Shown: one piece after another, positions 10,824 to 25,737 of the stretch
How the letters are laid out: the number at the start of each line of letters is the position of its first letter
How positions within the stretch are numbered: position 1 is the first letter of the stretch
DNA from: an uncultured delta proteobacterium
Lineage (GTDB): Bacteria > Desulfobacterota > Binatia > Bin18
DNA length: 64,000 nt
Direction: 5' to 3'
Assembly (NCBI GenBank): GCA_963733195.1
Contig: CAVTCR010000074.1
Location: 64,001-128,000, forward strand
Notes under the pieces: generated by a model
Database searches by the model: none
What the model saw: the letters and a program-made list of their open reading frames with translations, nothing else
What the model was told of the DNA's origin: nothing
Made by a program: the position numbers and the translations under genes

Positions 10824-11454
10824 GGCTGTGCTCGTTATAATAACTATCGGATGGACGCAGAGTTCCTGAAATGAGCACAGCAGCTTTGCGCTACTCCCAT
10901 CCGGAGAGGCGTAAGGCGTATATCTGACAAACTTTAGGTCTGTCAAATAGCGGAATGGGGGATAATCCTCTAGGTATTCCCCGGTGACACAGGGAAGATA
11001 TAGGGGAAGATCCCTAAGCTCCTGTTGAATCTCAGGTTTTTATTGGCACGATGGTAGGCCAGGAAAGGAAAATGAGCAAAGGTAACCTCACTACTAACGT
11101 GCAATCTTCTCTACAGAGAGGAAATAGCGGAACAGGGGATCTCCTATTGCCGATTCAACCGTCCATGGTAAGGCAGAGCGAAATGGCGTCTCTCGTACTA
11201 GGAAATCTGGCCTCTGGCAGCCTCGACAATGGTGCGACGCACACGGGTCGAGGTGGGCGAGCACCTCTCCCTGTCCATCGAAATGTTCGACTATTTATTC
11301 CTCGATTGCAGTCTTGGCAGCTTGACGTTGTTCCAGATTCCAAGCGCGTAAGAGCCAGATGTAAGTCGGTATGATGGCGGATGCCTGAACTCCATGAATG
11401 GAGACAGTGAAGGTCGATCCATGCTGCGACGAGGGGATTACGCGGAGGGAAAAG

Positions 11455-12995: not shown

Positions 12996-13797
12996 ATGCC
13001 TGTGGAAAAGCTCTTCACTGCTCTGGTCCTTGCAGGTCGCCGCGGTCCGACTGATCCAGTTGCCCAGGCTGCAGGGTGTAGTCACAAAGCGCTTGTGCCG
13101 ATTGCGGGTATCCCAATGCTCGTGCGAGTGTTGCGTGAGCTGCGAGCAGTCCCGCACGTCAAACAGATCGCTGTGAGTATCGACGATCCGGCAATTCTCG
13201 ACGGAGTCGGAGAGCTTCGATCGTTAGTTGAAAGTGGTGCGATTCACGTATATCCCAGTGGCCCGTCGCCGGCAGCAAGTGTTTTGGCTTATTTTCAGTC
13301 TCTCACAGCGGGGGAGCCGTTACTGGTAACCACAGCGGACCACCCGCTCTTGACGACAGAGATGCTTACCTACTTTTGTACGGCAGTGGCCGAGAATGAT
13401 GCTGATATCATGGCTGGAGTGATGGCGGCTTCAGTATTTCGTGTACGCTATCCGCACTCGAAACGCAGCTTCATTCCTCTACGAGAGGAAAGCTTCTGCG
13501 GCACCAATCTCTTTGCCCTGTGTACTCCACAGGCGGCAGCCGCGGCGCAATTCTGGGGGTATGCGGGACAGTTTCGCAAACGTCCGTGGCGACTGATCAG
13601 TACCTTTGGTTTGATAAACCTGCTGTTACTCGCACTCAAGCGACTTGATCTGAAAGCTGCGATTCCTCGGGCGTCTCGTGTTCTCGGCGCGCGAGTCGCT
13701 GTGGTACAGATGCCCTTCCCGGAAGTGTGCGATTGATGTCGATAATGTGGAGGATTTCGCGACTGCAACGCGTATTCTTAACGGACGTGAGAAGTGA
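12996..13797 (+). CDS. MobA/IspD-like nucleotidyltransferase, CpgD-like (putative CDP-head-group synthase); +1 frameshift near 13725
   Basis: ALVLAGRRG..DP......KAL, TTADHPLL, GTNLF, RKRPWRL. Removing one base restores the C-terminal AIDVD motif and a stop at 13797. Lies in the sphingolipid cluster. Confidence 0.75.
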
Positions 13798-13801
13798 GAC
13801 G

Positions 13802-14041
13802 ATGGAATCAATTCCTTGGCATTGCCAGGTCTGTGGGTATGATTTTGAAACCTCGCGTGGCGGACTATGCCGACGATGTCAGAAACCTGCCTGTAGGAGT
13901 TGTCTCCATTCTGGAGAAGTAAAAACCCAATCTCGTGAGGAAACTGGCTTTCTGTGGGTATGTACGCAATGCCTGACAGATGAGGAAAAGAAACAGCTTC
14001 CGCTATGGTCAAAACTCTTCCGTTGGCGGCCAAGACGTTGA
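13802..14041 (+). CDS. Small 8-cysteine zinc-finger protein
   Basis: CQVC-x10-CRRC-x3-CRSC-...-CTQC; starts 5 nt after the repaired upstream stop. Confidence 0.6.
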   Translation: MESIPWHCQVCGYDFETSRGGLCRRCQKPACRSCLHSGEVKTQSREETGFLWVCTQCLTDEEKKQLPLWSKLFRWRPRR

Positions 14042-14058
14042 TAGAGTAGCGAAGCTGT

Positions 14059-15015
14059 TCAGCGAAAAATTCCATCTGCTTGTAGTGTTCGTTCTTTTTT
14101 ATTGACGAAGCAATGAGTCGTCGAATCATACGCCCGGACTGCCATACGGATGTCAAAGCGAGGAGCCCGCGGCTCACTGTTACTTCGTTCAATACGATAC
14201 AGATGGTACCGTGCGCGTTTCTTTGGCTGACTGCCGATGGCTGATGCGGAACGCACACCAACGACGGGAATCGGTCCTTTCGGTCCGGGTATGCTCCTGA
14301 GCACGGTCCTATGTAAGTGGCCGTGCAAGACAAGTTCTGCTCCGGTCTTGCGTAACACTTCACAGAAGGCTGCCGTGTCAGTCAAACGGCGACGAGCTCC
14401 AACGTCCTCGTCCGGAGGATGGTGGATGAGCACGACGCGGCAAAGATTGGTCGCAGCAAACTGTTGTAACAACCGTTCGAGCCTTTCCAATTGTTGAGGG
14501 CCGACCGAACCATTGGCTGCAAGCCACGAAGCCGGAGGAAAGGCTGTATTGACCCCGATTAGCACAATCGGTTCACGAACACGCACTGTAGGAAAGACAA
14601 CACCTTCGTGGGGAGTGCCATTCGCGCGCTGTGCTTCATCCGATTGTAGATACGCTTCCCAGTGCTTCCACGAGCGTGCGTAGGGCATTGGAATATATGC
14701 ATCGTGATTGCCGGGAATGATAAACACATTCTTTGCTGACCCGAGTTGTTGGAGCCACGACACTGCGGCGAGAAATTCTTCTTCAAGGCTAATGTTGGCC
14801 AGATCCCCGGTGACGACGACAGCATCATGCGGCTGTTGGTGCAAGTCGGCGATGAGCGTCTGCAAGACCTCCGGACGATACTCTTTCTGTCGCCGCAAGA
14901 TCCATGATAACCAACCAAGGATCCGCTTATTCAGTAAGACGAGAGGATTCGTCACACGGACAGGAGTAGTATGAAGATCAGAGAGGTGGGCGAGTGTATA
15001 CACGTCGTGAGCCAT
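14059..15015 (-). CDS. Calcineurin-like metallophosphoesterase (Icc/CpdA-like)
   Basis: DLH, GD, GNHD, HHPP, GHLH motifs. Confidence 0.9.
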   Translation of the reverse strand: MAHDVYTLAHLSDLHTTPVRVTNPLVLLNKRILGWLSWILRRQKEYRPEVLQTLIADLHQQPHDAVVVTGDLANISLEEEFLAAVSWLQQLGSAKNVFIIPGNHDAYIPMPYARSWKHWEAYLQSDEAQRANGTPHEGVVFPTVRVREPIVLIGVNTAFPPASWLAANGSVGPQQLERLERLLQQFAATNLCRVVLIHHPPDEDVGARRRLTDTAAFCEVLRKTGAELVLHGHLHRTVLRSIPGPKGPIPVVGVRSASAIGSQPKKRARYHLYRIERSNSEPRAPRFDIRMAVRAYDSTTHCFVNKKERTLQADGIFR

Positions 15016-15093
15016 GAGAATGTGTCAGCCTATACCATGTTCCCTCCTTATGATAATACCGTTTCTCTACAGAAAGGGAGAATAGCGAAACTG

Positions 15094-16365
15094 ATGGCGA
15101 AGGAAACGAGGCAAGCGTGGATTGTTACCGAGCCGCAGCAATCTGATATTCGTGTCTGGGGCATTGCGCCGGCAGAACGGTTACGGCGAGCTTTGGATGC
15201 CGTTGGTGTCGCCAGCGAGCGCATCGATAGTGATCCCTCTGTTGATCTCCCATGTGTGACAGGTTCCCTTCTTCTCTTCCGGTCGGATTATGTGTTCGAT
15301 GAACGACTGATTCGGGCGTTGGTAGAATCAGTGGACATAGTGTTAGTCTCTCCATCTTCAGTATTTGATAGTGGAAGAGTGGTTGCGGCGCACGTGACGG
15401 CGTCTCATGCGACTGAGGCCCGGGATCTCTTGAGTGGACGATCTGTATCAAGAGAGTACCGTTCCGCTACCGAGCTGCACGTAGTTACTCCAACAGATTT
15501 GGTTCCTGCGTATACTGCAGCCTTACGCAAAACTGATCCGCCTTATCTTTTTGCTGTACAGCCGGAAAACCTCGCGGAGATCGAGGCGCGGATTTTCGCT
15601 GCGTCGTATAAGGGTATTACTGACCTAGTGACTAAATGGGTATGGCCGCGCCCTGCACGAATTGTGACACGTTGGTGCACGAATGCAGGTGTCACTCCTA
15701 ACATGATTACCTTTCTGAGTTGGGTGTTGGTCGTGCTGGTGACTTGGCTGTTTCTGCGCGGAGACTTTGGCCTGGGGCTCGTCTTTGCCTGGCTCATGAC
15801 TTTTCTCGATACAGTGGATGGGAAGCTCGCTCGGGTGACGCTAAACTCAAGTCGTATTGGTCATGTGCTTGACCACGGACTCGATATTCTTCATCCGCCC
15901 TTCTGGTATCTCGCCTGGTCAATGGGATTGCTCTTGGCCCCAGATGGTGGGAGTTTGAGCGCTAATAGTGACGTTGTTTCCTGGCTCAGACCTGCGGGAA
16001 TGATCACTGTAGTTGGCTATATCGTGGGTCGGTTGATTGAAGGACTCTTCATGCTCTTATTCAAAATGGAGATTCACTGTTGGCAGCCGATTGACGCATT
16101 TTTTCGTACGATTACTGCCCGTCGTAATCCAAACTTATTGTTACTCTCTGCTGCAACCCTTGTCGGTCGACCCGATATTGGGTTAGTACTGGTGGCTCTG
16201 TGGACGCTCTTTTCTATTGGGTTTCATACCGTGCGGGTGTGTCAAGCATCGGTCCATCGCCTCCGTGGTCAGTCGATTACGGTGTGGCAGGATGTGACGG
16301 CACGGCGAGACTCAAGCAACGAAACTGGGAGTGATCTCGAACGCCAGTGGGAGAGCGTGGCGTGA
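15094..16365 (+). CDS. CDP-alcohol phosphatidyltransferase with N-terminal soluble domain, CpgA-like
   Basis: YKGITDLVTKWVWP, TPNMIT, DTVDGKLAR...G..LDHGLD (CDP-AP signature), ARRNPN, several TM helices. Confidence 0.85.
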   Translation: MAKETRQAWIVTEPQQSDIRVWGIAPAERLRRALDAVGVASERIDSDPSVDLPCVTGSLLLFRSDYVFDERLIRALVESVDIVLVSPSSVFDSGRVVAAHVTASHATEARDLLSGRSVSREYRSATELHVVTPTDLVPAYTAALRKTDPPYLFAVQPENLAEIEARIFAASYKGITDLVTKWVWPRPARIVTRWCTNAGVTPNMITFLSWVLVVLVTWLFLRGDFGLGLVFAWLMTFLDTVDGKLARVTLNSSRIGHVLDHGLDILHPPFWYLAWSMGLLLAPDGGSLSANSDVVSWLRPAGMITVVGYIVGRLIEGLFMLLFKMEIHCWQPIDAFFRTITARRNPNLLLLSAATLVGRPDIGLVLVALWTLFSIGFHTVRVCQASVHRLRGQSITVWQDVTARRDSSNETGSDLERQWESVA

Positions 16366-17477
16366 GTGGTGGCAGTTTGTTGCGTGGGCGTCGGGCGAAA
16401 CCTCAGCGATTCTTGTCACCCTTTTTTGCGCTCTGTTTGCTGACGGTGCCTATTGTCAGCATTGCAGCGGAGTCGCGTGGCGACCCAGCTGCACATATCC
16501 TTCCCGGTGAGTTTGCTTCGGAGCACTGGGAGTTTACCGCCCGTTTCGATTCTGGCCACTTGCTGTTTGTTGAGTTCATTCTTACCAATATCGGCCTCGG
16601 CGATCGCAATGCAGCGGTGTTTGGCCATATCATCCCTCCAGGTGGGAAGCCGCATCGCTTTAGCAATGGTCGCACAGAAAGACACTGGACGTTGTCGCCC
16701 GATCGCTTACGGATGGAAGTGGGCACGAGTCTTCTCGATATGCACACGCCAACCTACAAGATGCAAGTGACTAAACGTAGGGTGCGTCTGGAATTGCAGA
16801 TTACTCCTGATGCGCGCCCATTGTGGTCGGGTACACTCGCGCCTCCAGGATATGCGCTTGACCTGTTAGCCGTTGCCGCGCCAATTGAGGGAACATTGTG
16901 GCTCAAAGGAATGACGAACCCAGCTCACGTTCGTGGGATTGTCGCAGCGACGCATAGTTGGACCAATGTCGCTGGTGCTGCATTGGTTTTGCGCAGAGTA
17001 GAGTTTTTCTCGCTGCAAAGAGAGACCCCCCTATATGGACTTGACCTGACCGCGCCTGATGGAACGCGGCGACGATGGATCGTCGTAAAGCAGTCGGATC
17101 GAGCTGATTATGTATCTGAGCATTTTGACCTCTCGTTCAACGGAGAATTGAAGGGGCGTAGTGAACGTGGATATACAGTGCCGAATGCATTGCAACTAAA
17201 AAATGCAGAGCTAGAAGGGCTAGTACGATTGGAGGCGCGGATTTTACAAGCTGATCCCTTTGTCGATCTTCCCCGACCGTTCCGTTACTTTGTCTCGCTT
17301 GTCCTTGACCTCCGCCCGCGACGCATCTGGGCGCAATCACAGTTTGAGATTTCTTGGCCGCTGTCCATGGACTCTGACCCAATACAGAGGCGTGGGTCCG
17401 GGATTACGGCTGTGACGTTCCTGAATCCACTTCCCTCTGTGATGGCAAGCGCTTATCGGGTTACGGCTCCGAGGTGA
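16362..17477 (+). CDS. Secreted beta-rich hypothetical protein, possible AttH/Svf1-like double lipocalin
   Basis: GTGA overlap with the upstream gene; signal peptide ending VSIA-AE; E.WEF...FDSG..LFV...TN.G start of the mature region; alternating beta-strand pattern. Confidence 0.6.
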   Translation: MSGGSLLRGRRAKPQRFLSPFFALCLLTVPIVSIAAESRGDPAAHILPGEFASEHWEFTARFDSGHLLFVEFILTNIGLGDRNAAVFGHIIPPGGKPHRFSNGRTERHWTLSPDRLRMEVGTSLLDMHTPTYKMQVTKRRVRLELQITPDARPLWSGTLAPPGYALDLLAVAAPIEGTLWLKGMTNPAHVRGIVAATHSWTNVAGAALVLRRVEFFSLQRETPLYGLDLTAPDGTRRRWIVVKQSDRADYVSEHFDLSFNGELKGRSERGYTVPNALQLKNAELEGLVRLEARILQADPFVDLPRPFRYFVSLVLDLRPRRIWAQSQFEISWPLSMDSDPIQRRGSGITAVTFLNPLPSVMASAYRVTAPR

Positions 17478-18440
17478 GTGGTGCGCATCGGTGTATTGAA
17501 CAACCTGCGTGCGGGTCGTAACCCGCGCCGAGTTGCACGGATGTTGTCGTTTCTCCGCGATTGTCCGGAGATTCCCCATGTGGAAACCGAAACCGGTGAG
17601 CACGTACAGGAGGCGCTCGTCACATTAGCGAAGCAAGATGTCGACATCCTGGCCGTCAACGGCGGTGATGGGACTATACAACGAGTCCTTACTGAACTCA
17701 TGGGAAACAAGATGTTTGAGCGAGTGCCATCAATCGTGCCGCTCCGTGGTGGTCGTACCAACATGATCGCACTGGACATCGGCAGTCAACGGAACCCAGT
17801 CGCTGCATTGGCTATTCTTCGTGATATCACTCGCACTAACAGTTCTCTCAATGGCAGAATGGTTGAGCGCTCGGTGCTGCGTATGGATCTTGAGCCAGAC
17901 GGTGTAACGCAATACGGCATGTCGTTCAGCGTTGGTCTGCTGCCACGTGCAATCGAGCTGACGCATCGTATGTTTCCAGAGGGGCGAGCGCAGGGAGTAC
18001 TCGGTTCAGGGATTGTTGCTGGGGGGTTGGTTCTGCGTGCTGCGTTTGGGAGGTTAGATGGTATTCTGCAACCGGACCCGATGGAAATCGCGCTCGACGG
18101 GTGCCTTCTGCCAGCGAAGGAATTCTTGGTGATGTTAGTCACCACCCTTGACCGGTTCTTTTTGCGGCTTCGTCCGTTTTGGGGACGTGAAGCTGCGCCC
18201 ATTCGTTTTATGGCGGTTGCGGCTGGAGCTGTACGACCGCCGCTAGCACTCCTCAAGATCCTCTATGGCCGCCCACCAGCGTGGATCACTCCAGAGGTTG
18301 GATATACGAGCCATAACGTCGAGCACATCGAACTGCGTGTCGATTGTGGCTTAGTAATGGACGGAGAGATGTTCGCTCCACGACCGGGCAGGAGAGTTAG
18401 GCTGTCGGCAGAACAGTGCCTGCAGTTTGTCCGCACATGA
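17478..18440 (+). CDS. Diacylglycerol-kinase-family lipid kinase, putative ceramide kinase (CpgB-like)
   Basis: NNLRAG, NGGDGT, PLRGGRTNMIALD, MDGE; adjacent to the spt cluster. Confidence 0.82.
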   Translation: MVRIGVLNNLRAGRNPRRVARMLSFLRDCPEIPHVETETGEHVQEALVTLAKQDVDILAVNGGDGTIQRVLTELMGNKMFERVPSIVPLRGGRTNMIALDIGSQRNPVAALAILRDITRTNSSLNGRMVERSVLRMDLEPDGVTQYGMSFSVGLLPRAIELTHRMFPEGRAQGVLGSGIVAGGLVLRAAFGRLDGILQPDPMEIALDGCLLPAKEFLVMLVTTLDRFFLRLRPFWGREAAPIRFMAVAAGAVRPPLALLKILYGRPPAWITPEVGYTSHNVEHIELRVDCGLVMDGEMFAPRPGRRVRLSAEQCLQFVRT

Positions 18441-18444
18441 AATT

Positions 18445-19416
18445 ATGGATACTGATCACGTGTCGCTTAAACAGATGGTGACTGAGGAGTTGGTGCAATC
18501 GGCGCCTGCCGAAGTGGACGTGTTTGTCGAAGCCATACGGCAACGCTTCGGCACCGCAGTTGCAGCGATTCTCTTCTACGGTTCCTGCTTGCGTAAACGT
18601 ACCCTGGCAAGTGAAGTGGCCGACTTTTATGTCATTGTCGATTCGTATGAGACTGCCTATCCTTCTGCGTTCTTACGATCGCTGAATACACTCCTTCCTC
18701 CGAATGTGTTTTACCTGGAAAGAACACGTGGAGATCTTACACTCCGGGCGAAGTATGCGGTCATCTCGACAAAGGATTTTGCTTATGCTGCGTCACCGCG
18801 GTGCCTCCACTCGATCGTGTGGGGACGCTTCTGCCAACCTGCGCGACTGGTGTATAGCCGTGACGACGCTGCTCGGGATGTGGTTGTTGAAGCAGTGCGA
18901 CAGTCAGTGTTGACAATGGTTTCCCGGATTGCGCCGTTATTGCCAACGTCGGATGAAACCGGGCCGATTGCCTTGGAGGAGCTGTGGCAACGTGGGTTTC
19001 GCGAGAGCTACAGTATGGAGTTGCGACCCGAGATGCCTGGTACTATTCGTGCACTCTACGAGATCATGCCGTCGCGTTATCATCGCATAGCACATGTAGC
19101 ATTACAGGAACTTGCTCAGTATGGTTGGCTCTGGGTGCGGACCAGCGCGTCAGGCGGGTATGTGACCATCCCAAAGGTGCAACTGTGGCAAATTCGCACG
19201 AGTTGGCGATGGCGGCGTCCCCTTGCCAAGGGGTTGTATCTTCTGCGTCTGATCAAATCGGCAGTCACATTTGGTGACTGGTTTCCGTACGTATTATGGA
19301 AAATCGGTCGTCATCGCGGAGAAAAACTTGAAGCTAGCGAGCGCCAACGCCGTCATCCGTTTCTCTTTGGGGTTCCGGTGTTGCTCAAAATTTGGTTGGG
19401 GGGCGGTCTAAGATAA
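18445..19416 (+). CDS. CpgC-like protein with Tam41/Mmp37-type nucleotidyltransferase motifs
   Basis: AILFYGS, DFYVIVD, PPNVFY, KYAVIS, WGRFCQP, SY..ELR.E; sits directly after the kinase as in the Caulobacter cpg locus. Confidence 0.7.
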   Translation: MDTDHVSLKQMVTEELVQSAPAEVDVFVEAIRQRFGTAVAAILFYGSCLRKRTLASEVADFYVIVDSYETAYPSAFLRSLNTLLPPNVFYLERTRGDLTLRAKYAVISTKDFAYAASPRCLHSIVWGRFCQPARLVYSRDDAARDVVVEAVRQSVLTMVSRIAPLLPTSDETGPIALEELWQRGFRESYSMELRPEMPGTIRALYEIMPSRYHRIAHVALQELAQYGWLWVRTSASGGYVTIPKVQLWQIRTSWRWRRPLAKGLYLLRLIKSAVTFGDWFPYVLWKIGRHRGEKLEASERQRRHPFLFGVPVLLKIWLGGGLR

Positions 19417-20479
19417 TTATGGTACTTGCGGATGCATATGTCGGTCTACGTATGAGTGTCCGTACAGCAGAGAGAATCCCTCGTTCTTCTGTGCGATGAT
19501 ACGGTGAGTCGGACGAAAGTTGAGTCAAAAGCTGGCGATGCGCCTTGCCGAGACTGTGATAAGGCAGTGTCGGCAAGAAGTGATGCAGTGCGTGGTAACG
19601 TAAACCGACTGGCGCAGCCAGGACGGTGAGAAACGGTGGCCCGGTTAGGTTCACCGAATCAAGCAGTTGCTCGACTGCGGTCAGTTGCCGTCCATCGTTT
19701 TCATAGCGGTGTGCAGCCAACGTTCGCACCTGATTGACGACAGCAATTCCTACCCCAACAATATACCACTGCCATAACCAAGAGAACGAAAAGGTTCCGT
19801 TCGACAGTGTAACGACTCCGGTCCAGAACAGGAGTGCGGTGGCCAATTCTTGTACGTACCAGCGGATACGTTCGTTTGCCCGTGGTAGTGAGCGTATATA
19901 GTGCAGATTGATCACTAACGATGAGGCATGGGCGATTAGCAGACGACGGAGCGACGGCAGGAAGAAAGAGAGCAGCCCTAGCACTCCCCAACGCAGGGCA
20001 AGTAAGACCGGGACAAAAATCATACTGACAACGAAACGGAGTACTTGAAAACCACTCCATTGCGTAATCGGAGCGTATTCTGGGTCTTGCGTTGTGGCGA
20101 ACGTGGCTTGCCGATGATGGTCACCGTGCGAGTCGTACATGACACTAGGAAGGAGAAACGGAGCGCCGACCAATATATTCCAAGCGAGTTCGAGTCCTGG
20201 TACTGCCTCACGCTTCAAATGCGACAGCTCATGAATAAAAATGGTTGCTCGGAGAAGCGCGACGACGGCAACCAACGTTGCAAGGATATGGATAAGCGAG
20301 AGAAACGAAGCTGTGGCTCCGACAACAAAAGCACCCCAGCCAATGAAGGCAGAAAGCAGGAGATCACACCAGTAAATCCACGGGATAGGAGGAAACGCAG
20401 TAACCAACTGACGGCGTAGATGGGTGAGGACAAGAAGTTCCTCGTCCTCTATAATCTGCTTATTTGAGTTTAGCTCCAT
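19385..20479 (-). CDS. Membrane fatty acid (possibly sphingolipid) desaturase/hydroxylase
   Basis: His boxes HELSH, HGDHH, YHALHH; GAGGAG RBS before MELNSN. Confidence 0.85.
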   Translation of the reverse strand: MELNSNKQIIEDEELLVLTHLRRQLVTAFPPIPWIYWCDLLLSAFIGWGAFVVGATASFLSLIHILATLVAVVALLRATIFIHELSHLKREAVPGLELAWNILVGAPFLLPSVMYDSHGDHHRQATFATTQDPEYAPITQWSGFQVLRFVVSMIFVPVLLALRWGVLGLLSFFLPSLRRLLIAHASSLVINLHYIRSLPRANERIRWYVQELATALLFWTGVVTLSNGTFSFSWLWQWYIVGVGIAVVNQVRTLAAHRYENDGRQLTAVEQLLDSVNLTGPPFLTVLAAPVGLRYHALHHFLPTLPYHSLGKAHRQLLTQLSSDSPYHRTEERGILSAVRTLIRRPTYASASTIIILDRPPTKF

Positions 20480-20600
20480 TCTCCTCAAATAACGGGAAAA
20501 ATCGTTCGAACTCAAGGCCAAGCGTAAAATCATAGTAGGGGCATTTCGCCCCGTGTTAAGGCTAAAATTCCGCTTAGAGGCCTTATGCCCCTTGTAAAAC

Positions 20601-21686
20601 ATGGGAAGTCTGTTATCTACCGGCTTCAGTATTGTTGCAGGAATAATATTACTACGCACTTCTGTGGACACTTCAGAACCGCTTTCTCGTCCTGTAGTAC
20701 AGGGGGACCGTCGTGTTTTGGTGACGGGTGGCACCGGTTTCATTGGATCCCACTTTGTTGCGGCATTGACGGATCAAGGGGTCAAACCTCGAGTCCTTGT
20801 ACGATCTACCAGCGACATCACGCCATTAACCGCACTTGGCGTTGAGTGCATTGTTGGGGGGCTCGACGATCCAGATACGTTGATGCGAGCTGTGAGTGGT
20901 GTGGAGACGGTTGTTCATCTTGCTGCGGTGACTCGTGCGCGATCGGAAAAAGAGTATTTCTATGTGAACGCGGACGGAACAAAAAACTTGGTCAACGTAC
21001 TACGTACCGCACAATCTCGACCTCGGCGACTTGTCTATGTCAGCTCGCTAGCGGCAGGGGGGCCCTCTATAGATGGCATACCGGTTGACGTACAAGATGT
21101 GCCGCGGCCTATCACTTCATATGGACGAAGCAAACTAGCAGGGGAAGAGGCCTGCCTTGCCCTAGCTCATGAAATGGAAATGTTGATCTTGCGACCACCA
21201 GCTGTATATGGACCGGGAGACCGGGATCTATTTCGTTGCTTCCAGATGGCGACGCGTGGGATTCTTCCGGTGCCCACCGGCCCGGCCCGGTGGCTACAGT
21301 TCATCCATGTACATGATCTCATTAATGCTTTACTGTGTGCGGTAACGGCAGAGCAGGCGAGTGGAGTCTATCACGTAGCTGAAGCGCAACCGTATGCCTG
21401 GGGGCAAATTACCGACTGGCTCGCCCAGGCGGTAGGGCGACGAGTGCGAGCTGTGCATGTTCCTCCGTGGGGAATACGCGCTGCGGCGGCAGTGAGTGAA
21501 TTTGGTGCTGCCATGATCGGCCGTGCGACGATTTTTAACCGAGAGAAAGCAGAAGAACTGCTTGCTCCGGGTTGGTTATGTAAAACTGAAGCCGTGACGC
21601 GAGATCTCGGCTTTGAAGTCCGCATTCCACTGCCCCAAGGGTTGGTGGGAACCGCAAGTTGGTACCGGGAGCATGGATGGTTGTAG
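20601..21686 (+). CDS. cerR: Extended SDR / NAD-dependent epimerase-dehydratase, putative ceramide reductase CerR (true start probably ~20710)
   Basis: VTGGTGFIG, HLAA, SSLAA, YGRSK, RPPAVYGPGD; immediately upstream of spt. Symbol assigned from context. Confidence 0.7.
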   Translation: MGSLLSTGFSIVAGIILLRTSVDTSEPLSRPVVQGDRRVLVTGGTGFIGSHFVAALTDQGVKPRVLVRSTSDITPLTALGVECIVGGLDDPDTLMRAVSGVETVVHLAAVTRARSEKEYFYVNADGTKNLVNVLRTAQSRPRRLVYVSSLAAGGPSIDGIPVDVQDVPRPITSYGRSKLAGEEACLALAHEMEMLILRPPAVYGPGDRDLFRCFQMATRGILPVPTGPARWLQFIHVHDLINALLCAVTAEQASGVYHVAEAQPYAWGQITDWLAQAVGRRVRAVHVPPWGIRAAAAVSEFGAAMIGRATIFNREKAEELLAPGWLCKTEAVTRDLGFEVRIPLPQGLVGTASWYREHGWL

Positions 21687-21785
21687 GTGAGGTGTGTGAG
21701 GGGGATGGCTGCATGAGGAAACTGCAGGAGGCTGCTCTGTTTTCCCAACGGACAGCTGCGGATGTTTACGGAGAGGGGGCAAGGA

Positions 21786-22967
21786 ATGAATCTTCTCGAT
21801 AAGTGTGTGCGCTTTACACGGGCTCGAGAGGCGCAGGCGGCGGGATTCTACCCGTTCTTTATTCCGATTGAATCGTCAGATGGTGCTGAAGTTCTCGTTC
21901 GTGGTGAACCCAAGATCATGATGGGTTCAAACAATTATCTTGGACTGACCCACCATCCAAAAGTCATTGCTGCGGCTGACGCGGCGTTAAAAAAATACGG
22001 GACAGGGTGTACTGGTAGTCGCTTCCTCAACGGAACGTTAGATTTGCACGAACAACTCGAAGATCGTCTGGCCCACTTCTTGGGCAAAGAAGCTGCGCTG
22101 GTCTTCAGTACCGGGTATCAAACAAACCTCGGTGTGGTCTCTTCTCTGGTGCATAAGGGAGACTATCTCTTTCTTGATAAGCTCAACCACGCCAGCCTCG
22201 TGGATAGTGCGCGTCTGGCGTATGGTACTGTATGTCGTTACCATCATAACGATATGCGGGCACTCACGCAGCAGTTAGCTCAAGCTCCTACGAACGCGGG
22301 AAAGTTGATCGTCACTGATGGTGTGTTCTCTATGGATGGCGACATTGTCAACCTGCCGGATATGGTTGCCCTGGCAGAGAACTATAATGCCGACATCCTC
22401 GTTGATGATGCACATGCGATCGGTGTCTTGGGAGAGCAGGGTGGAGGAACGGCGCAACACTTTGGCTTAGAAGATAAAGTGTCTCTCATTGTCGCAACCT
22501 TTTCTAAGTCGCTTGCTTCGATCGGTGGTGTCGTCGCTGGAGCGGAACCTGTCATTCATTACTTGAAACATCATGCGCGTGCGCTTATTTACAGTGCCAG
22601 TATGCCGCCGGCTTCGGTGGCAACGGTGTTGGCTGCACTGGATGTAATTGAGGAAGAACCAGAGCGGCGCGAAGCCCTGTGGCGCAACACACGTCGGATG
22701 CAAGATGGCCTCAAGAACCTGGGCTATGATATCGGCGAGAGCGAAACCCCGGTGATCCCGGTGTTGATCGGTGATCTGGCAGAGATGATCATGTTGTGGA
22801 AACGGATGTTCGACTCCGGCATCTTCACCAACCCGGTCATTCCCCCGGCGGTGCCAGAACACTCGTGTCGATTGCGCATTTCAATGATGGCGACACATAC
22901 TGATGAACAAATTGATTATGTGTTGGACGCTTTTGCCCAGCGGGTACGTCAACGCGCGGCAGTCTAG
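21786..22967 (+). CDS. spt: Serine palmitoyltransferase (alpha-oxoamine synthase family)
   Basis: GFYPFF, GSNNYLGL, GTGCTGSRFLNGTLDLH, NHAS, DDAH, PLP-Lys motif TFSKS; flanked by CerR-like and bCerS-like genes. Confidence 0.85.
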   Translation: MNLLDKCVRFTRAREAQAAGFYPFFIPIESSDGAEVLVRGEPKIMMGSNNYLGLTHHPKVIAAADAALKKYGTGCTGSRFLNGTLDLHEQLEDRLAHFLGKEAALVFSTGYQTNLGVVSSLVHKGDYLFLDKLNHASLVDSARLAYGTVCRYHHNDMRALTQQLAQAPTNAGKLIVTDGVFSMDGDIVNLPDMVALAENYNADILVDDAHAIGVLGEQGGGTAQHFGLEDKVSLIVATFSKSLASIGGVVAGAEPVIHYLKHHARALIYSASMPPASVATVLAALDVIEEEPERREALWRNTRRMQDGLKNLGYDIGESETPVIPVLIGDLAEMIMLWKRMFDSGIFTNPVIPPAVPEHSCRLRISMMATHTDEQIDYVLDAFAQRVRQRAAV

Positions 22968-23013
22968 GCGCATCTGGTGGTATGGACTGAACAGCATTCG
23001 ACAGGGATAAAGC

Positions 23014-24157
23014 ATGCTAGCGACCGTGCGTGTTGTTCCTGTCCGAGATCATCGCGAGTTCCACCACTTCCTCAAGCTGCCGTGGCGGGTCTATCGTAAC
23101 GATCCATTCTGGGTCCCCCCACTCCTCTTCGACCAGAAACAACTGCTTAATCGTCGCAAACACCCGTTTCACCAACACGCAGAGGTCGAGTATTTTGTCG
23201 CCTGGCGTGGTGAGGAAGCAGTTGGTCGCATTGCTGCTATCGTCAATCACCAGTATGTGCAGTTTCACGAAGAAGCGACCGGATTTTTCGGTTTCTTTGA
23301 GAGCATCCATGATGTTAAGGTCGCGACCGCATTATTGGCAACGGCAGAACAGTGGGTAGCTGACCGTGGCATGCAGCAGATCCGTGGACCGATGAATTTT
23401 TCCACCAATGAAGAATGTGCCTTGCTCATTGATGGCTTTGATTCAGCACCAGCAGTGATGATGCCGTATAACCCCACGTATTATCCGCAGTTATTGGAGG
23501 GGAGTGGCTACGCCAAGGCAAAAGACCTTCTTGCCTATCTGGTCGACGGCACTGTACCGCCGCCGCCGCGTCTTGTGAACGGCGCAGAGCGACTGCTGCA
23601 ACGGCAGAATATCGTCATTCGTCCATTCAATCTGAAACGCTTCAAGCAAGAGGTCGAAAGTCTCACCGCCATTTATCAAAGCGCATGGGAGCGGAATTGG
23701 GGCTTTGTTCCCATGACACAGGCAGAGGTTGATAACTTTGCTGATCAGATGTGGTGGGTGGCTAATCCGAATCTGTGTTTGCTTGCGGAAATCGATGGTG
23801 AAGCAATTGGTTTCGCGCTCGCATTACCGGATTACAATCAGGTGTTGCGCCATATGAATGGCCGGCTCTTTCCCTTTGGGTTGTTCAAGTTTCTGTGGTA
23901 TAGGACGCAAAATTTCTACCGCACGGATATTGATCTTGGGGCTCAAGCCAGGCTTTCGTCGCCGAGGAATCGACGCGATGCTATACTTGCGCCTCTGGCA
24001 AGAAGCACCACGCAACGGCTATCCTGTTGTTGAGTGCTCATGGATTCTGGAAGACAACTGGGATATGCGTCGGGCACTCGAACGTATGGGGGGACGGCTG
24101 TACAAAACCTATCGCGTGTATGAGAAGGAACTGACAAGCAATGAGAATCGCGTGTGA
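23014..24157 (+). CDS. bcerS: GNAT-fold protein, putative bacterial ceramide synthase; +1 frameshift near 23905
   Basis: WVPPL, GRIAA, GFFGFFE, RGP.NFSTNEEC, MPYNP.YY, W..NWGFVP, ALPD.N; the C-part LG...RRRG...SWILEDN..M...Y follows when one base is removed. Confidence 0.8.
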
Positions 24158-25737
24158 GTAGAACTCCGCTCCTTGCCGTTCTCCGCCAAGCGGCAGCTGT
24201 TGCGTTGCTTTGTGAGGAACACCAAGTCTCTCCTAGGGAAGGACTTGAGCGGGTAGCCGAGGCACGGTGGAACCGGCGACAGTTTTTGCGCCTGGCAACT
24301 GGAGCGGTGGTTGGGACGGCTCTTGGCGTGCCCGCGCTTCCCCAGCCTGTATCTGCCGGGAGTACCCCACGGATCATCATCGTTGGCGCTGGTGCTGCGG
24401 GTCTGACCTGTGCCTATCGTTTACAACAAGCCGGAGTGCCCGTGCAGGTGATCGAGAGCAGCAAACGAGTCGGGGGGCGTGTGTATTCGTTACGCGATAC
24501 CTTTCCTGATGGGCAGATCGCCGAGCTTGGCGGAGAATTTATCGATACTGGGCACCGTGCATTGCGACGGTTAGTGCAGGAACTGGGATTGTCGTTGGTC
24601 GATCTGGTTCTGGCCGACAGCAAACGCGAGCCAGTTTTTTTCTTTGGCAACCGCCGAGTTTTAATGCCTGAGGTCGTCGAGGCTTTTCGCCCGGTCGCCC
24701 GACGAATTCGTCAGGATATGACCCCCCTTCGCGGTGTCGTCCCAACCTATCAGCAACCTAATCGAGGGAGAGTGCTCGACCAGATGAGCATTACGGAATG
24801 GCTGGAGACACGGGGGGTAACTGGTGCGCTTCGCTCACTACTAGAGACTGCATATGTTGGTGAATTCGGCCTCGAAGCCGCTGAACAGAGTGCATTGAAT
24901 TTCCTTCTGATGATTAGCGCTCAGCCGGGGTCCTTTGAACTTTTCGGTGAGAGTGACGAGCGGTTCCACATCGTCGAAGGGAATGACAGGGTGCCAACGC
25001 GACTAGCAGAACGACTTGCACAGCCAGTGACACTTGAGACCCGCCTTGAAGCGATCCGCCGTCAGGCCAATGGTACGTATGTGTTGACCGTGAACCAGGC
25101 TGGCACAGTGCGTGATCTTGACGCGCATAAAGTAGTGCTGGCGATTCCGTTTAGCATACTGCGCCAGGTCGACCTTACAGGGGTAGAACTTCCTAAAGTG
25201 AAGCGGTTGGCGATTACGACGTTGGGCTACGGTACGCATACCAAGCTGATGACCGGATTCACGCGACGTGTATGGCACGACACAAACGAAAACGGGAGTT
25301 CGGTAACGGATTTACCGTATCAATCGTCTTGGGACACAAGCCGTGGGCAGCCCGGAACTCATGGCCTTCTGACCAATTTTGCTGGTGGCACTCGCGGTTT
25401 GGTTTTGGGCGAAGGCACCCCTAATGAACGAGCGACAGAATTCGCCGGACAATTGGACTACGTCTTTCCTGGAGTAAAAGAGGCGCATACCAAACTTACT
25501 GTGAGGTTTTCTTGGCCGAAGGCGCGCTCATTCCTTGGCAGTTATGCGTGTTACAAACCTGGACAGTATACGACGATTGCTGGCGTTGAAGGCGAGGCAG
25601 TCGATGGACTCCACTTTGCTGGTGAGCACACCAGCCTGGCCTTCCAAGGTTTTATGAACGGTGCAGTTGAATCCGGCGAACGTGCAGCGCGAGAGATTCT
25701 TGCCGGTCTTGGCAAACAGAAACAGCGAAACCCCTAG
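24154..25737 (+). CDS. Flavin monoamine oxidase family protein with twin-arginine motif
   Basis: NRRQFL plus hydrophobic helix, GAGAAG, RVGGR, ELGGEFI, FAGEHT..GFMNGAVESG; GTGA overlap with bcerS. Confidence 0.88.
   Translation: MSRTPLLAVLRQAAAVALLCEEHQVSPREGLERVAEARWNRRQFLRLATGAVVGTALGVPALPQPVSAGSTPRIIIVGAGAAGLTCAYRLQQAGVPVQVIESSKRVGGRVYSLRDTFPDGQIAELGGEFIDTGHRALRRLVQELGLSLVDLVLADSKREPVFFFGNRRVLMPEVVEAFRPVARRIRQDMTPLRGVVPTYQQPNRGRVLDQMSITEWLETRGVTGALRSLLETAYVGEFGLEAAEQSALNFLLMISAQPGSFELFGESDERFHIVEGNDRVPTRLAERLAQPVTLETRLEAIRRQANGTYVLTVNQAGTVRDLDAHKVVLAIPFSILRQVDLTGVELPKVKRLAITTLGYGTHTKLMTGFTRRVWHDTNENGSSVTDLPYQSSWDTSRGQPGTHGLLTNFAGGTRGLVLGEGTPNERATEFAGQLDYVFPGVKEAHTKLTVRFSWPKARSFLGSYACYKPGQYTTIAGVEGEAVDGLHFAGEHTSLAFQGFMNGAVESGERAAREILAGLGKQKQRNP

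What the first reader, a model, noticed from the sequence alone, without database searches (positions are those of the whole stretch)
12996..25737. Apparent sphingolipid plus phospho-head-group (ceramide-phosphoglycerate-like) cluster with extra genes, in a genome that does not look alphaproteobacterial
Seen: contiguous genes for an NTP-transferase, CDP-alcohol phosphotransferase, DAGK-family kinase, CpgC-like protein, extended SDR, alpha-oxoamine synthase and GNAT protein. Established: Spt, bCerS and CerR make ceramide in Caulobacter crescentus, and CpgABCD add phosphoglycerate head groups; these anionic sphingolipids let Caulobacter survive loss of lipid A. Inference: this organism makes anionic phosphosphingolipids. 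The phosphotransferase-kinase-CpgC order recalls Caulobacter, but the cluster adds a secreted lipocalin candidate, desaturase, phosphoesterase, zinc finger and amine oxidase. No ACP, acyl-ACP synthetase or LptFG-like gene is present in this window.
Basis: partly seen in the sequence, partly recalled or inferred. Interest (0 to 1): 0.88.

Follow-up and report, generated by a model that had tools for sequence, protein, structure and literature searches.

The report
Binatia sphingolipid and phospho-head-group gene island
This is a real gene cluster for making ceramide and giving it a charged phosphate head group, of the kind known from Caulobacter, here in an uncultured soil Binatia bacterium in a rearranged variant.

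Summary
Window 12996-24157 carries ten conserved genes. They are a CC_1153-like nucleotidyltransferase, a CC_1158-like metallophosphoesterase, a CpgA-like CDP-alcohol phosphotransferase and an AttH-like secreted double-barrel protein. Then come a CpgB-like lipid kinase, a Tam41-like CpgC homologue, a membrane desaturase/hydroxylase, a CerR-like SDR, an Spt-like synthase and a bCerS-like GNAT. Closest homologues are labelled Candidatus Binatia.

The genes are reciprocal or unique best hits of the sphingolipid-cluster genes of alphaproteobacteria. The same order recurs in Binatia relatives. The synthase is nearest Bacteroidota-type Spt, which fits the absence of an ACP or acyl-ACP synthetase.

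A CpgD-like cytidylyltransferase and a second LptFG pair lie on another contig. In 4 of 4 relatives examined they sit in the same island.

The zinc-finger ORF and the amine oxidase are not conserved parts. The phosphoesterase is not an addition, because Caulobacter has one.

Two genes carry one-base frameshifts. Related metagenome contigs lack both, and other genes of this assembly are split too, so these are probably assembly errors.

Verdict: a new variant of a known system, of moderate interest. The head-group chemistry is not determined.

The parts
12996..13797 (+). MobA-like nucleotidyltransferase. It is the counterpart of the NTase beside bCerS in proteobacterial clusters (CC_1153 type). 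It is broken by a +1 frameshift near 13723 in this assembly.
   Evidence: Pfam NTP_transf_3, E 5.4e-15. It is 33-48% identical to the NTase adjacent to the GNAT in alpha, beta and gamma loci. It has a unique or best hit in 3 alphaproteobacterial genomes. The conserved C-terminus 'AIDVD...' lies in another frame. Contigs of 3 of 3 covering runs lack one base at 13723. The best PDB sequence match of the profile is TTHA0179 (2dpw), E 1.7e-36.
13802..14041 (+). Small ORF with four CxxC pairs (zinc-ribbon-like). It is not a conserved member of the cluster.
   Evidence: Weak FYVE hits below cut-off. There is no tblastn hit at E<=1e-8 in 0 of 80 related loci. The closest relative, L003, has no room for it between the NTase and the phosphoesterase.
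14059..15015 (-). Calcineurin-like metallophosphoesterase, of the CC_1158 type.
   Evidence: Pfam Metallophos, E 1.1e-14. It is found at the same position and orientation in 44 of 80 loci, including alphaproteobacterial ones. CC_1158 is described as a phosphoesterase in PMC11324152 (Conclusions section).
15094..16365 (+). CpgA-like CDP-alcohol phosphotransferase with a conserved N-terminal cytoplasmic domain of about 170 aa. The ORF is open from 14971.
   Evidence: Pfam CDP-OH_P_transf. The full motif D-x2-DG-x2-AR-x8-G-x3-D-x3-D is invariant in 25 aligned homologues, and the N-domain is shared with Nitrosospira, Nitrosomonas and Virgifigura proteins. The best PDB sequence match is AF2299 (4o6m), E 3e-11, with a weak match of the N-domain as well.
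16347..17477 (+). Secreted or anchored AttH-like double beta-barrel protein. It is an accessory gene of the Binatia/Myxococcota form of the cluster.
   Evidence: No Pfam, NCBIfam or PDB sequence match. AlphaFold model pLDDT 87.0. The Foldseek top hit is AttH NE1406 (2ich), E 2e-12, TM 0.60/0.69, followed by kievitone hydratase, Diels-Alderases and 25-phosphosteroid lyase. It is present in 29 of 80 loci and in 0 of 30 alpha/beta/gamma loci. It is present in 10 of 21 genomes of the family. A hydrophobic N-terminal stretch is seen in the sequence.
17478..18440 (+). CpgB-like lipid (ceramide) kinase.
   Evidence: Pfam DAGK_cat. A GGDG motif is present in the sequence. It is a reciprocal best hit with the cluster kinase of a Sphingomonadales genome. 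It lies next to the CpgC-like gene in 77 of 80 loci.
18427..19416 (+). CpgC-like, Tam41-like nucleotidyltransferase. It is a candidate CTP:ceramide-1-phosphate cytidylyltransferase.
   Evidence: The family has 1141 representative clusters at E<=0.001. The profile hits Tam41 (6ig2), E 3.1e-5. 7 of 24 members hit PF09139. Model pLDDT is 89.2 and the Foldseek top hit is Tam41 (6ig4), E 9.1e-8. In alphaproteobacterial loci the homologue lies between the kinase and spt, which is the position of CC_1161.
19385..20479 (-). Membrane fatty-acid desaturase/hydroxylase with three histidine boxes. The ORF is open to 20743.
   Evidence: Pfam FA_desaturase, E 1.3e-22. HELSH, HGDHH and HALHH are seen in the sequence. 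It is present at the same position in 21 of 80 loci, 11 of 13 among Binatia-labelled ones.
20601..21686 (+). CerR-like extended SDR (ketoreductase of ceramide synthesis).
   Evidence: Pfam Epimerase, E 7e-34. Its best genome-wide hit in 3 alphaproteobacterial genomes is the SDR inside their sphingolipid cluster. The reverse search returns this gene.
21786..22967 (+). Serine palmitoyltransferase-like alpha-oxoamine synthase, Bacteroidota-type branch. The ORF is open from 21762.
   Evidence: The best NCBIfam match is SerpalmtaseCFB at 544.3 bits (cut-off 640), above bioF at 421 and Kbl at 388. The best PDB match is Sphingobacterium SPT at 434 bits, against KBL at 265 or less and BioF at 230 or less. 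The genome's other paralogue is a true BioF over cut-off. Most homologues are 393 aa long and start at M9.
23014..24157 (+). bCerS-like GNAT acyltransferase. It is broken by a +1 frameshift near 23902 in this assembly.
   Evidence: Pfam Acetyltransf_1. It has a single strong hit in each of 3 alphaproteobacterial genomes, inside the cluster next to the NTase. The C-terminal GNAT core continues in frame +1. The gene is intact and in one frame in L003. Contigs of 2 of 2 covering runs lack one base at 23902/23903.
24154..25737 (+). Flavin amine oxidase with a twin-arginine-like leader. It is a neighbour, not a conserved part.
   Evidence: Pfam Amino_oxidase, E 1.9e-60. The motif 'NRRQFLRL' is seen in the sequence. 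It has a hit in 0 of 80 related loci, although several loci extend 4-5 kb past the GNAT.

Best explanation
The region is the core of a sphingolipid island of a Binatia bacterium.

Inferred by homology with the Caulobacter pathway:
- Spt condenses serine with an acyl-CoA.
- The GNAT (bCerS) N-acylates the product and the SDR (CerR) reduces it, which gives dihydroceramide.
- The DAGK-family kinase (CpgB-like) makes ceramide-1-phosphate.
- The Tam41-like CpgC homologue activates or extends it, most simply as CDP-ceramide.
- The AF2299-type CDP-alcohol phosphotransferase (CpgA-like), the two nucleotidyltransferases (CC_1153-like here, CpgD-like on contig C62) and the metallophosphoesterase (CC_1158-like) build an anionic phospho-head group. 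A phosphoglycerate type is the default guess.
- The histidine-box desaturase/hydroxylase modifies a chain.
- A second LptFG pair, elsewhere in this genome but inside the island in relatives, would export the lipid.

Shown here: gene content, homology, synteny, folds and phyletic spread. Inferred: every enzymatic step and the identity of the head group.
For: Organism. The closest homologues of the Spt and of the CpgC-like gene are titled Candidatus Binatia.

Spt. It is closer to characterised Spt than to BioF or Kbl. PDB matches: Sphingobacterium SPT 434 bits, KBL 265, BioF 230. NCBIfam: CFB-type Spt is the best model at 544 bits. A separate BioF paralogue passes its own cut-off at 491.5 bits.

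Orthology with proteobacterial clusters. In 3 alphaproteobacterial genomes (a Sphingomonadales MAG, Kordiimonas lipolytica and Virgifigura deserti) the window's proteins find the genes inside the sphingolipid cluster:
- SDR: best hit in each.
- Kinase: only strong hit in each.
- GNAT: sole hit in each.
- NTase: sole hit in the Sphingomonadales MAG and best hit in Kordiimonas; the third genome searched for this gene was Nitrosospira multiformis, a betaproteobacterium, where it was also the sole hit.
Reverse searches with the Sphingomonadales SDR and kinase return the window genes. Those loci have the published Caulobacter order:
- GNAT, NTase, LptF/G, [phosphoesterase], CDP-OH transferase, kinase, CpgC-like, spt, ACP-like ORF, SDR, AMP-binding (PMC11324152, sections 8, 9 and 13).

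Motifs and folds:
- The CDP-alcohol motif is intact and GGDG is present in the kinase.
- The CpgC-like protein is Tam41-like by profile and by fold.

Conservation:
- The gene order is conserved in Binatia loci.
- CpgC-like is found in 18 of 18 other genomes of the family and in 46 of 151 genomes of the class.

The rest of the island:
- A CpgD-like NTase has 4jd0 as its top PDB match, the same entry reported as the top structural hit for CpgD in PMC12275187.
- It lies beside a second LptFG pair on C62.
- In 4 of 4 relatives examined, both lie 3-11 kb from the Cpg genes.
Against: - No direct comparison with Caulobacter proteins was possible, because no tool gave their sequences. The link runs through other alpha- and betaproteobacteria and through published gene order.
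- The Spt scores below the NCBIfam equivalog cut-off (544 against 640). Its amino-acid substrate is not shown.
- Two genes, the NTase and the bCerS-like GNAT, are frameshifted in this assembly, and the second LptF is also split.
- The island is split in this genome. The second CDP-OH transferase paralogue seen beside an ABC transporter in relatives was not found here.
- The head group is unknown. In Caulobacter, CpgA is needed only for the second phosphoglycerate (PMC12275187 and PMC9393093, passages). The simple route of CDP-ceramide plus a transferase therefore does not match the genetics there.
- Pfam Tam41 itself does not match the window protein, and it does not ring in the Caulobacter control genome.
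Confidence: 0.8

Rival explanations
1. The pathway makes a phosphosphingolipid with a different head group, not phosphoglycerate. Candidates are phosphoinositol, phosphoglycerol, or another alcohol carried by a CDP-alcohol.
For: - The CDP-OH transferase's nearest named models are inositol-phosphate-type synthases, with weak scores of 39-46 bits, and AF2299.
- The substrates of the CC_1153-like NTase and of the CpgD-like NTase are not known for this lineage.
- This form of the cluster has extra genes (AttH-like, desaturase) that the Caulobacter locus lacks.
Against: - The transferase is 42-46% identical over its full length, N-domain included, to the one in Nitrosospira and Virgifigura Cpg-type loci. 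That is far closer than to any inositol enzyme.
- No myo-inositol-1-phosphate synthase domain was found in the genome, which is 93% complete. The control search rang in Bacteroides and five others.
- A CpgD-like gene is present.
Confidence: 0.25
2. The synthase is not a serine palmitoyltransferase. The cluster makes another N-acylated amino-lipid, for example a sulfonolipid-like or 1-deoxy type, which then receives the phospho-head group.
For: - The Spt is below the equivalog cut-off.
- Related alpha-oxoamine synthases with other substrates score fairly well. Cysteate-C-fatty acyltransferase (28eh) scores 254.7 bits.
Against: - The score gap to true Spt is large, 434 bits against 255-265 bits.
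- The gene is flanked by bCerS-like and CerR-like genes that are best hits of sphingolipid-cluster genes.
- A kinase of the ceramide-kinase clade needs the C1 hydroxyl, which only serine gives. This point rests on established chemistry.
Confidence: 0.07
3. In this particular genome the island is decaying. The frameshifts are real and the organism no longer makes these lipids.
For: - There are frameshifts in the NTase, the GNAT and the second LptF.
- The island is split between two contigs, and the second transferase paralogue found in relatives is missing.
Against: - Apart from one base each, the broken genes keep conserved sequence in both frames.
- Near-identical metagenome contigs lack the extra base, in 3 of 3 covering runs at the first site and 2 of 2 at the second.
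- Unrelated genes are split as well. Of 11 AMP-binding matches in this genome, two pairs are halves of one gene each. The genus-mate G215 has one such pair among 20 matches. This points to indel errors across the assembly.
Confidence: 0.1

Closest known systems
Caulobacter crescentus sphingolipid locus CC_1152-CC_1168 (spt, bCerS, CerR, CpgA-D, CC_1153, CC_1158, LptF2/G2)
   Same: It has counterparts of spt, the bCerS GNAT, the CerR SDR, the CpgA CDP-OH transferase, the CpgB kinase, CpgC, the CC_1153-type NTase and the CC_1158-type phosphoesterase. The sub-order transferase, kinase, CpgC is the same. A CpgD-like NTase and a second LptFG pair lie elsewhere in the genome and in the same island in relatives (PMC11324152 sections 8, 9 and 13; PMC12275187 first part).
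   Different: - There is no ACP and no acyl-ACP synthetase.
- The Spt is of the Bacteroidota-type branch, about 40% identical to the proteobacterial type.
- spt, SDR and GNAT follow CpgC on the same strand.
- An AttH-like gene and a desaturase are inserted.
- Relatives add a second CDP-OH transferase paralogue and an MsbA-like ABC transporter.
- Caulobacter sequences themselves were not compared.
Sphingobacterium multivorum serine palmitoyltransferase (PDB 3a2b, 8guh)
   Same: It is the best solved relative of the synthase, at 434 bits, aligned nearly end to end, 12-395 against 7-390.
   Different: The score is below the NCBIfam CFB-type equivalog cut-off. The genomic context is of the Caulobacter type, not the Bacteroidota type.
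Tam41, mitochondrial CDP-diacylglycerol synthase (PDB 6ig2, 6ig4; PF09139)
   Same: It is the best sequence-profile and fold match of the CpgC-like protein. This suggests a lipid-phosphate cytidylyltransferase.
   Different: The relation is remote, at 13-15% identity and TM 0.47/0.55. The window protein itself does not reach Pfam's model. The substrate would be ceramide-1-phosphate, which is untested.
AF2299 / IPCT-DIPPS-type CDP-alcohol phosphotransferases (PDB 4o6m, 4mnd)
   Same: It has the same two-part build, a cytoplasmic N-domain plus a membrane domain with the CDP-alcohol motif.
   Different: Similarity is low outside the motif. The N-domain shows no glycine-rich loop of the kind typical of active nucleotidyltransferases. 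That reading comes from the alignment, and the motif itself is recalled.
AttH / CrtC-like double-barrel proteins (NE1406, PDB 2ich; kievitone hydratase 7a0q; 25-phosphosteroid lyase 9g4c)
   Same: The fold matches that of the 376-aa protein.
   Different: No sequence-level match was found. This is a new genomic context, between a CDP-OH transferase and a ceramide-kinase-like gene.

Membership tests
Bacterial serine palmitoyltransferase (Spt) | PLP-dependent alpha-oxoamine synthase fold with the active-site lysine motif | tested here: met
   Pfam Aminotran_1_2, E 1.4e-62. 'TFSKS' is present in the sequence. The name of the motif is recalled.
Bacterial serine palmitoyltransferase (Spt) | Closer to characterised Spt than to BioF, Kbl or ALAS | tested here: met
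   PDB: SPT 434 bits, KBL 265 or less, BioF 230 or less. NCBIfam: the best model is SerpalmtaseCFB. The genome's other paralogue is BioF.
Bacterial serine palmitoyltransferase (Spt) | Score over a curated Spt equivalog cut-off | tested here: not met
   544.3 bits against a cut-off of 640 (CFB). 407.9 against 500 (beta type). 342.8 against 670 (alpha type). The relatives L003 and L008 behave likewise.
Bacterial serine palmitoyltransferase (Spt) | Makes 3-ketosphinganine from serine and acyl-CoA or acyl-ACP | not testable with these tools
   Needs an enzyme assay.
Bacterial ceramide synthase bCerS (GNAT) | Orthologue of the GNAT in proteobacterial sphingolipid clusters | tested here: met
   It has a single hit per genome in 3 alphaproteobacterial genomes, E 6e-65 to 2e-69, inside the cluster. 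It is 36-42% identical in alpha, beta and gamma loci.
Bacterial ceramide synthase bCerS (GNAT) | Intact reading frame | tested here: not met
   There is a +1 frameshift near 23902 in this assembly. Relatives are intact. It is probably an assembly error.
Ceramide reductase CerR (extended SDR) | Reciprocal best hit with the SDR next to spt and ACP in proteobacterial clusters | tested here: met
   Forward search. Reverse search.
Ceramide kinase CpgB | DAGK/LCB5 catalytic domain with GGDG, and reciprocal best hit with the cluster kinase | tested here: met
   Pfam DAGK_cat. GGDG is in the sequence. The motif is named in PMC10331486 (passages). Reciprocal hits.
Ceramide kinase CpgB | Phosphorylates ceramide | not testable with these tools
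   Needs an assay. CpgB also takes diacylglycerol in vitro (PMC10331486, passages).
CpgC (CC_1161 / CCNA_01219) | Homologue of the gene between cpgB and spt in alphaproteobacteria | tested here: met
   It is 35-41% identical to that gene in Sphingomonadales, Kordiimonas and Virgifigura loci.
CpgC (CC_1161 / CCNA_01219) | Direct similarity to the Caulobacter protein | not tested
   No tool gave the Caulobacter sequence. The Tam41 family search did not ring in the Caulobacter control.
CpgA (CDP-alcohol phosphotransferase) | Complete CDP-alcohol motif, and the family's N-terminal domain | tested here: met
CpgD (CTP:phosphoglycerate cytidylyltransferase) | Present in the window | tested here: not met
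   The window NTase is of the CC_1153 type. A CpgD-like gene lies at G000:C62:100054-100815, with 4jd0 as its top PDB match.
Sphingolipid-associated LptF2/LptG2 | A second LptFG pair linked to the sphingolipid genes | tested here: inconclusive
   The genome has two pairs. The C62 pair sits beside the CpgD-like gene, and its orthologues (58-72% identical) lie in the island in 4 of 4 relatives. Similarity to proteobacterial cluster LptFG does not separate the two pairs.

The most novel reading that the evidence does not exclude
Binatia and many Myxococcota-labelled MAGs share a distinct form of the Cpg module. It runs CpgD-like NTase, CC_1153-like NTase, phosphoesterase, AF2299-type transferase, AttH-like protein, kinase, Tam41-like protein and desaturase. 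This module could build a phosphosphingolipid not yet described, through a CDP-ceramide intermediate. That route would be a sphingolipid mirror of the CDP-diacylglycerol, PgsA and phosphatase route. The secreted AttH-like double barrel would be a new sphingolipid-specific modifying enzyme (hydratase or lyase) or a periplasmic carrier.
Probability: 0.2. Interest if true: 0.65.

Novelty: new variant of a known kind. Interest (0 to 1): 0.45.

Why it matters
Anionic sphingolipids let Caulobacter live without lipid A, and the enzymology of CpgA and CpgC is still open.

The full gene set turns up in a different candidate phylum, with a Bacteroidota-type Spt and no ACP system. This suggests the head-group module moves and recombines independently of the ceramide module. 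It also gives natural variants for working out which genes are needed for which step: forms with and without the AttH-like gene, with a second transferase, or with the CpgD-like gene unlinked.

The CpgC family was first reported only from Caulobacterales and Sphingomonadales (PMC9393093, passage). It is far wider than that, with 1141 representative clusters. It is Tam41-like by fold, which supports a cytidylyltransferase role.

For soil ecology, it predicts sphingolipids in an abundant uncultured lineage.

Tried and rejected
- The protein-atlas search could not take the new sequence.
- The fold library pdb_via was not on the machine.
- Pfam and NCBIfam gave nothing for the 329-aa and 376-aa proteins, apart from DUF1997 at E 0.098. 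A sequence profile of the 376-aa family found no PDB chain.
- A genome search with Pfam Tam41 found nothing in the own genome and did not ring in the Caulobacter control. The relation is too remote for that model, so this says nothing either way.
- I tried to assign the C62 LptFG pair to the sphingolipid type by similarity to the cluster LptFG of Nitrosomonas, Nitrosospira, Sphingomonadales and Virgifigura. Both pairs are equally distant, at 21-26% identity.
- The inositol head-group idea: no MIPS domain was found in the genome.
- The second CDP-OH transferase paralogue of relatives was not found in the own genome with that query.
- No RNA holder was listed among the sequencing runs.
- All runs held only small shares of the words, 0.18 or less. 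They were used only to read the two frameshift sites.
- The stretch 22771-23620 had almost no contig cover.
- I did not read Stankeviciute et al. 2022 (Nat Chem Biol). It is known to me only from reference lists and recall. Supplements were closed, among them the S2 Table of PMC11324152 with its orthologue lists. Either may already list Binatia-like 'Deltaproteobacteria' MAGs.
- Literature searches behind the statement that Binatia sphingolipids are not in print: 'Binatota' with 'sphingolipid' returned 0 papers. 'sphingolipid', 'Myxococcota', 'serine palmitoyltransferase' and 'Binatia' returned no listed paper holding 'Binatia'. 'CpgC', 'CpgA' and 'sphingolipid' returned only the Caulobacter papers.

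Full report
**What is there.**
The window is G000:C74:64001-128000 of a 6.95-Mb assembly in 87 contigs, 93% complete. G+C is even at 0.50-0.55, with no compositional break at the cluster.

- NTP_transf_3, 12996-13736.
- Metallophos, 14059-15015, minus strand.
- CDP-OH_P_transf, 14971-16365.
- A 376-aa protein with no family match, 16347-17477.
- DAGK_cat, 17478-18440.
- A 329-aa protein with no family match, 18427-19416.
- FA_desaturase, 19385-20743, minus strand.
- Epimerase-type SDR, 20601-21686.
- Aminotran_1_2, 21762-22967.
- GNAT, 23014-24033.
- Amino_oxidase, 24154-25737.

The transferase, the 376-aa gene, the kinase and the 329-aa gene overlap or abut one another. That is the layout of an operon.

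**Whose genome.**
The closest homologues of the synthase are 89-100% identical. Where they carry a name, it is 'Candidatus Binatia' or 'Deltaproteobacteria' MAGs. The best loci found with the 329-aa protein are titled Candidatus Binatia. NCBI taxonomy places Binatia in the candidate phylum Binatota.

**The synthase is Spt-like.**
- NCBIfam ranks the Bacteroidota-type serine palmitoyltransferase model first, at 544 bits against a cut-off of 640. BioF scores 421, Kbl 388 and the alphaproteobacterial Spt model 343.
- Among solved structures, Sphingobacterium SPT scores 434 bits and Sphingomonas SPT about 297-317. KBL scores 265 or less, a cysteate acyltransferase 255, and BioF 230 or less.
- As controls, the genome's only other paralogue passes the BioF cut-off. 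The synthases in proteobacterial loci pass the beta-type Spt cut-off. Two Binatia relatives behave like the window.
- The gene is therefore on the Spt side of the family, though outside every curated equivalog.

**Link to the Caulobacter system.**
I could not obtain Caulobacter sequences. The link therefore goes through other proteobacteria and through published gene order.

*The family of the 329-aa protein.* It has 1141 representative clusters at E<=0.001. The best 80 were kept. They include named isolates: Nitrosospira multiformis, N. briensis, Nitrosomonas marina, Kordiimonas lipolytica and Virgifigura deserti.

*Proteobacterial loci.* tblastn of all window proteins against the 80 loci shows one recurring order in alpha-, beta- and gammaproteobacteria:
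- GNAT, NTase, two LptF/LptG genes (Pfam), sometimes a phosphoesterase, CDP-OH transferase, kinase, the 329-aa homologue.
- Then, on the opposite strand: spt, an ACP-like small ORF, the SDR and an AMP-binding enzyme.

This matches the order CC_1153/1154 ... CC_1158-CC_1165 described for Caulobacter. It also matches the functions given there (PMC11324152, sections 8, 9 and 13, read in full):
- CC_1158, phosphoesterase.
- CC_1159, CDP-alcohol transferase.
- CC_1160, ceramide kinase.
- CC_1161, with a CDP-DAG-synthase-like domain.
- CC_1153, CofC-like nucleotidyltransferase.
- CC_1152 (CpgD), nucleotidyltransferase.

*Best-hit tests.* In three alphaproteobacterial genomes the results were as follows.
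- The window SDR's best hit is the cluster SDR.
- The kinase's only strong hit is the cluster kinase.
- The GNAT's only hit is the cluster GNAT.
- The NTase search used Kordiimonas, the Sphingomonadales MAG and Nitrosospira multiformis, a betaproteobacterium, as the third genome. The hit was sole in the Sphingomonadales MAG and in Nitrosospira, and the best of three in Kordiimonas.
- Reverse searches with the Sphingomonadales SDR and kinase return the window genes.

**Individual proteins.**
- *CpgC-like, 329 aa.* A profile of 24 members hits Tam41, the mitochondrial CDP-DAG synthase, at E 3.1e-5. 7 of 24 members hit Pfam Tam41_Mmp37. An AlphaFold model with pLDDT 89.2 has Tam41 as its best Foldseek match, E 9.1e-8, TM 0.47/0.55.
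- *Transferase.* It carries the complete CDP-alcohol motif. Its N-terminal domain of about 170 residues is conserved in all 25 aligned homologues, proteobacterial ones included. Its best solved relative is AF2299, whose N-domain also aligns weakly. The real start is probably M42, at 15094.
- *Kinase.* It has the GGDG motif. The motif is named in PMC10331486 (passages).
- *Desaturase.* It has three histidine boxes.
- *376-aa protein.* It has a hydrophobic leader and a confident model, pLDDT 87.0. Its best matches are the AttH-like NE1406 structure (E 2e-12, TM 0.60/0.69), kievitone hydratase, fungal Diels-Alderases and 25-phosphosteroid lyase.

**What is core and what is not** (the groups are my labels, taken from record titles).

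Counts over the 80 loci:

| Gene | Loci with a hit, of 80 |
|---|---|
| Kinase | 77 |
| NTase | 55 |
| Transferase | 47 |
| Phosphoesterase | 44 |
| AttH-like | 29 |
| Desaturase | 21 |
| Zinc-finger ORF | 0 |
| Amine oxidase | 0 |
| Upstream amidohydrolase | 0 |
| Downstream ferritin | 0 |

- The AttH-like gene is in 0 of 30 alpha/beta/gamma loci, 18 of 24 Myxococcota- or Deltaproteobacteria-labelled loci, and 5 of 13 Binatia-labelled loci.
- The desaturase is in 11 of 13 Binatia-labelled loci.
- The Spt of the window's type, 72-89% identical and on the same strand, occurs only in the Binatia-type loci.
- The Myxococcota-labelled loci share the head-group module but have no spt, SDR or GNAT within 10 kb (0, 0 and 1 of 24).
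- Two Binatia-labelled loci, L075 and L076, carry the proteobacterial form instead.
- Within the window's taxonomic family the CpgC-like gene is in 18 of 18 other genomes. In the class it is in 46 of 151 genomes, and in the phylum sample in 17 of 201.
- The AttH-like gene is in 10 of 21 family genomes.

**The rest of the island.**
- The window has no LptF/G and no PP-binding gene. It has no AMP-binding hit by tblastn.
- The genome has two LptFG pairs. Beside the pair on contig C62 lies a nucleotidyltransferase.
- That NTase's best PDB sequence match is 4jd0, followed by a CTP:phosphocholine cytidylyltransferase. The entry 4jd0 is the one reported as the top structural hit for CpgD (PMC12275187, first part read).
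- Homologues of this gene, 46-58% identical, lie inside 15 of the 80 Cpg loci. They occur in 18 of 21 family genomes.
- I fetched four relatives: G233, G114, G355 and G251. In all 4 of 4, the CpgD-like gene and the orthologue of the C62 LptF lie 3-11 kb from the Cpg genes. The orthologue is 58-72% identical to the C62 pair and about 30% to the other pair.
- In 3 of the 4, a second CDP-OH transferase paralogue lies between them, next to an MsbA-like ABC transporter. In the fourth (G251) the transporter is there but the paralogue gave no separate hit.
- In the studied genome this island is split, and the second transferase was not found.
- A 2026 preprint reports that the LptF/G paralogues of the Caulobacter locus are needed for sphingolipid transport, and that Myxococci and Bacteroidetes have only one pair (10.64898/2026.04.12.717747, passages). 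The Binatia island therefore resembles Caulobacter in this respect.

**Frameshifts.**
- The NTase's conserved C-terminus ('AIDVD...') and the GNAT's core continue one base out of frame, near 13723 and 23902.
- I laid soil-metagenome contigs, mostly 95% identical or more, on the region. One base is left out at 13723 in 3 of 3 covering runs, and at 23902/23903 in 2 of 2. Relatives are therefore intact at both sites.
- The second LptF is also split.
- Of 11 AMP-binding matches in this genome, two pairs are halves of single genes. The genus-mate G215 has one such pair among 20 matches.
- I read this as indel error across the assembly, not as decay of this pathway. Only the source reads can settle it.

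**Mechanism.**
*Shown:* gene content, orthology to cluster genes, motifs and folds.

*Inferred:*
1. Spt, the GNAT and the SDR make dihydroceramide.
2. The kinase makes ceramide-1-phosphate.
3. The Tam41-like enzyme most simply makes CDP-ceramide.
4. The transferase, the two nucleotidyltransferases and the phosphoesterase add and trim an acidic phospho-head group.
5. The desaturase/hydroxylase modifies a chain.
6. The second LptFG exports the lipid.

Phosphoglycerate is the default head group by homology. No inositol-phosphate synthase was found. The Caulobacter genetics do not fit a simple CDP-ceramide-plus-transferase scheme, because CpgA is needed only for the second phosphoglycerate. I therefore hold the order of steps loosely.

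**Novelty.**
Already in print:
- Bacterial sphingolipid genes are widespread (PMC11087976, passages).
- CpgB is broadly conserved across bacterial classes (PMC10331486, passages).
- The Cpg genes occur in some beta- and gammaproteobacteria (PMC11324152, section 9).
- CC_1161 has a CDP-DAG-synthase-like domain (PMC11324152, section 13).

Not found in print with my searches:
- The pathway in Binatia.
- The Binatia/Myxococcota form of the module, with an AttH-like gene.
- The combination of a Bacteroidota-type Spt with Caulobacter-type partners.
- The true breadth of the CpgC family. Zik et al. reported homologues only in Caulobacterales and Sphingomonadales (PMC9393093, passage).

This is a new variant of a known kind, of moderate interest.

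Noticed in passing
G000:C62:100054-103151 (locus L085 5052-8164): A CpgD-like nucleotidyltransferase (top PDB match 4jd0) lies divergently beside a second LptF/LptG pair. The LptF is split, and its C-terminal part shares one open frame with LptG. In 4 of 4 relatives this block lies in the sphingolipid island.
   Followed up: yes
L003 1005-4242; also L008, L009, L087, L088, L089: Relatives carry a second, divergent CDP-alcohol phosphotransferase paralogue, 31-33% identical to the first, next to an MsbA-like ABC transporter just upstream of the NTase. The paralogue was not found in the studied genome.
   Followed up: partly
window 13802-14041: A small ORF with four CxxC pairs sits in about 300 bp of DNA that the closest relative lacks, between the NTase and the phosphoesterase. 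No homologue appears in the 80 loci.
   Followed up: partly
window 24154-25737: A flavin amine oxidase with a twin-arginine-like leader. Its start overlaps the GNAT stop. It is absent from all related clusters.
   Followed up: partly
proteins P0139 (594 aa) and P0200 (662 aa); locus L044 239-2278: Some homologues of the CpgC-like protein are the C-terminal half of proteins about twice as long. One Nitrosospira-labelled contig shows a single 679-aa frame spanning the kinase and the CpgC-like part. These may be kinase-CpgC fusions.
   Followed up: no
L075, L076: Two Binatia-labelled contigs carry the proteobacterial form of the cluster, with a beta-type Spt on the opposite strand. Both forms therefore occur under that label.
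   Followed up: partly
L004, L015, L054: Record titles disagree with gene content. A contig titled 'uncultured Enterobacteriaceae' has the Binatia-type cluster. One titled 'Gammaproteobacteria' has the Myxococcota-type module. One titled 'Terriglobia' has the same hit order as a Dongiaceae contig. These look like binning or labelling errors.
   Followed up: no
G000:C62:245050-246149 and G000:C73:69490-70561: Two AMP-binding genes of this genome are each split into two pieces. Together with the three breaks in the sphingolipid genes, this suggests about one indel per several kb in the assembly.
   Followed up: partly
window 8145-10946: Upstream lie a GAF histidine kinase, an HDOD/HD-domain protein and a 157-aa ORF on the minus strand. 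No link to the cluster was seen.
   Followed up: no
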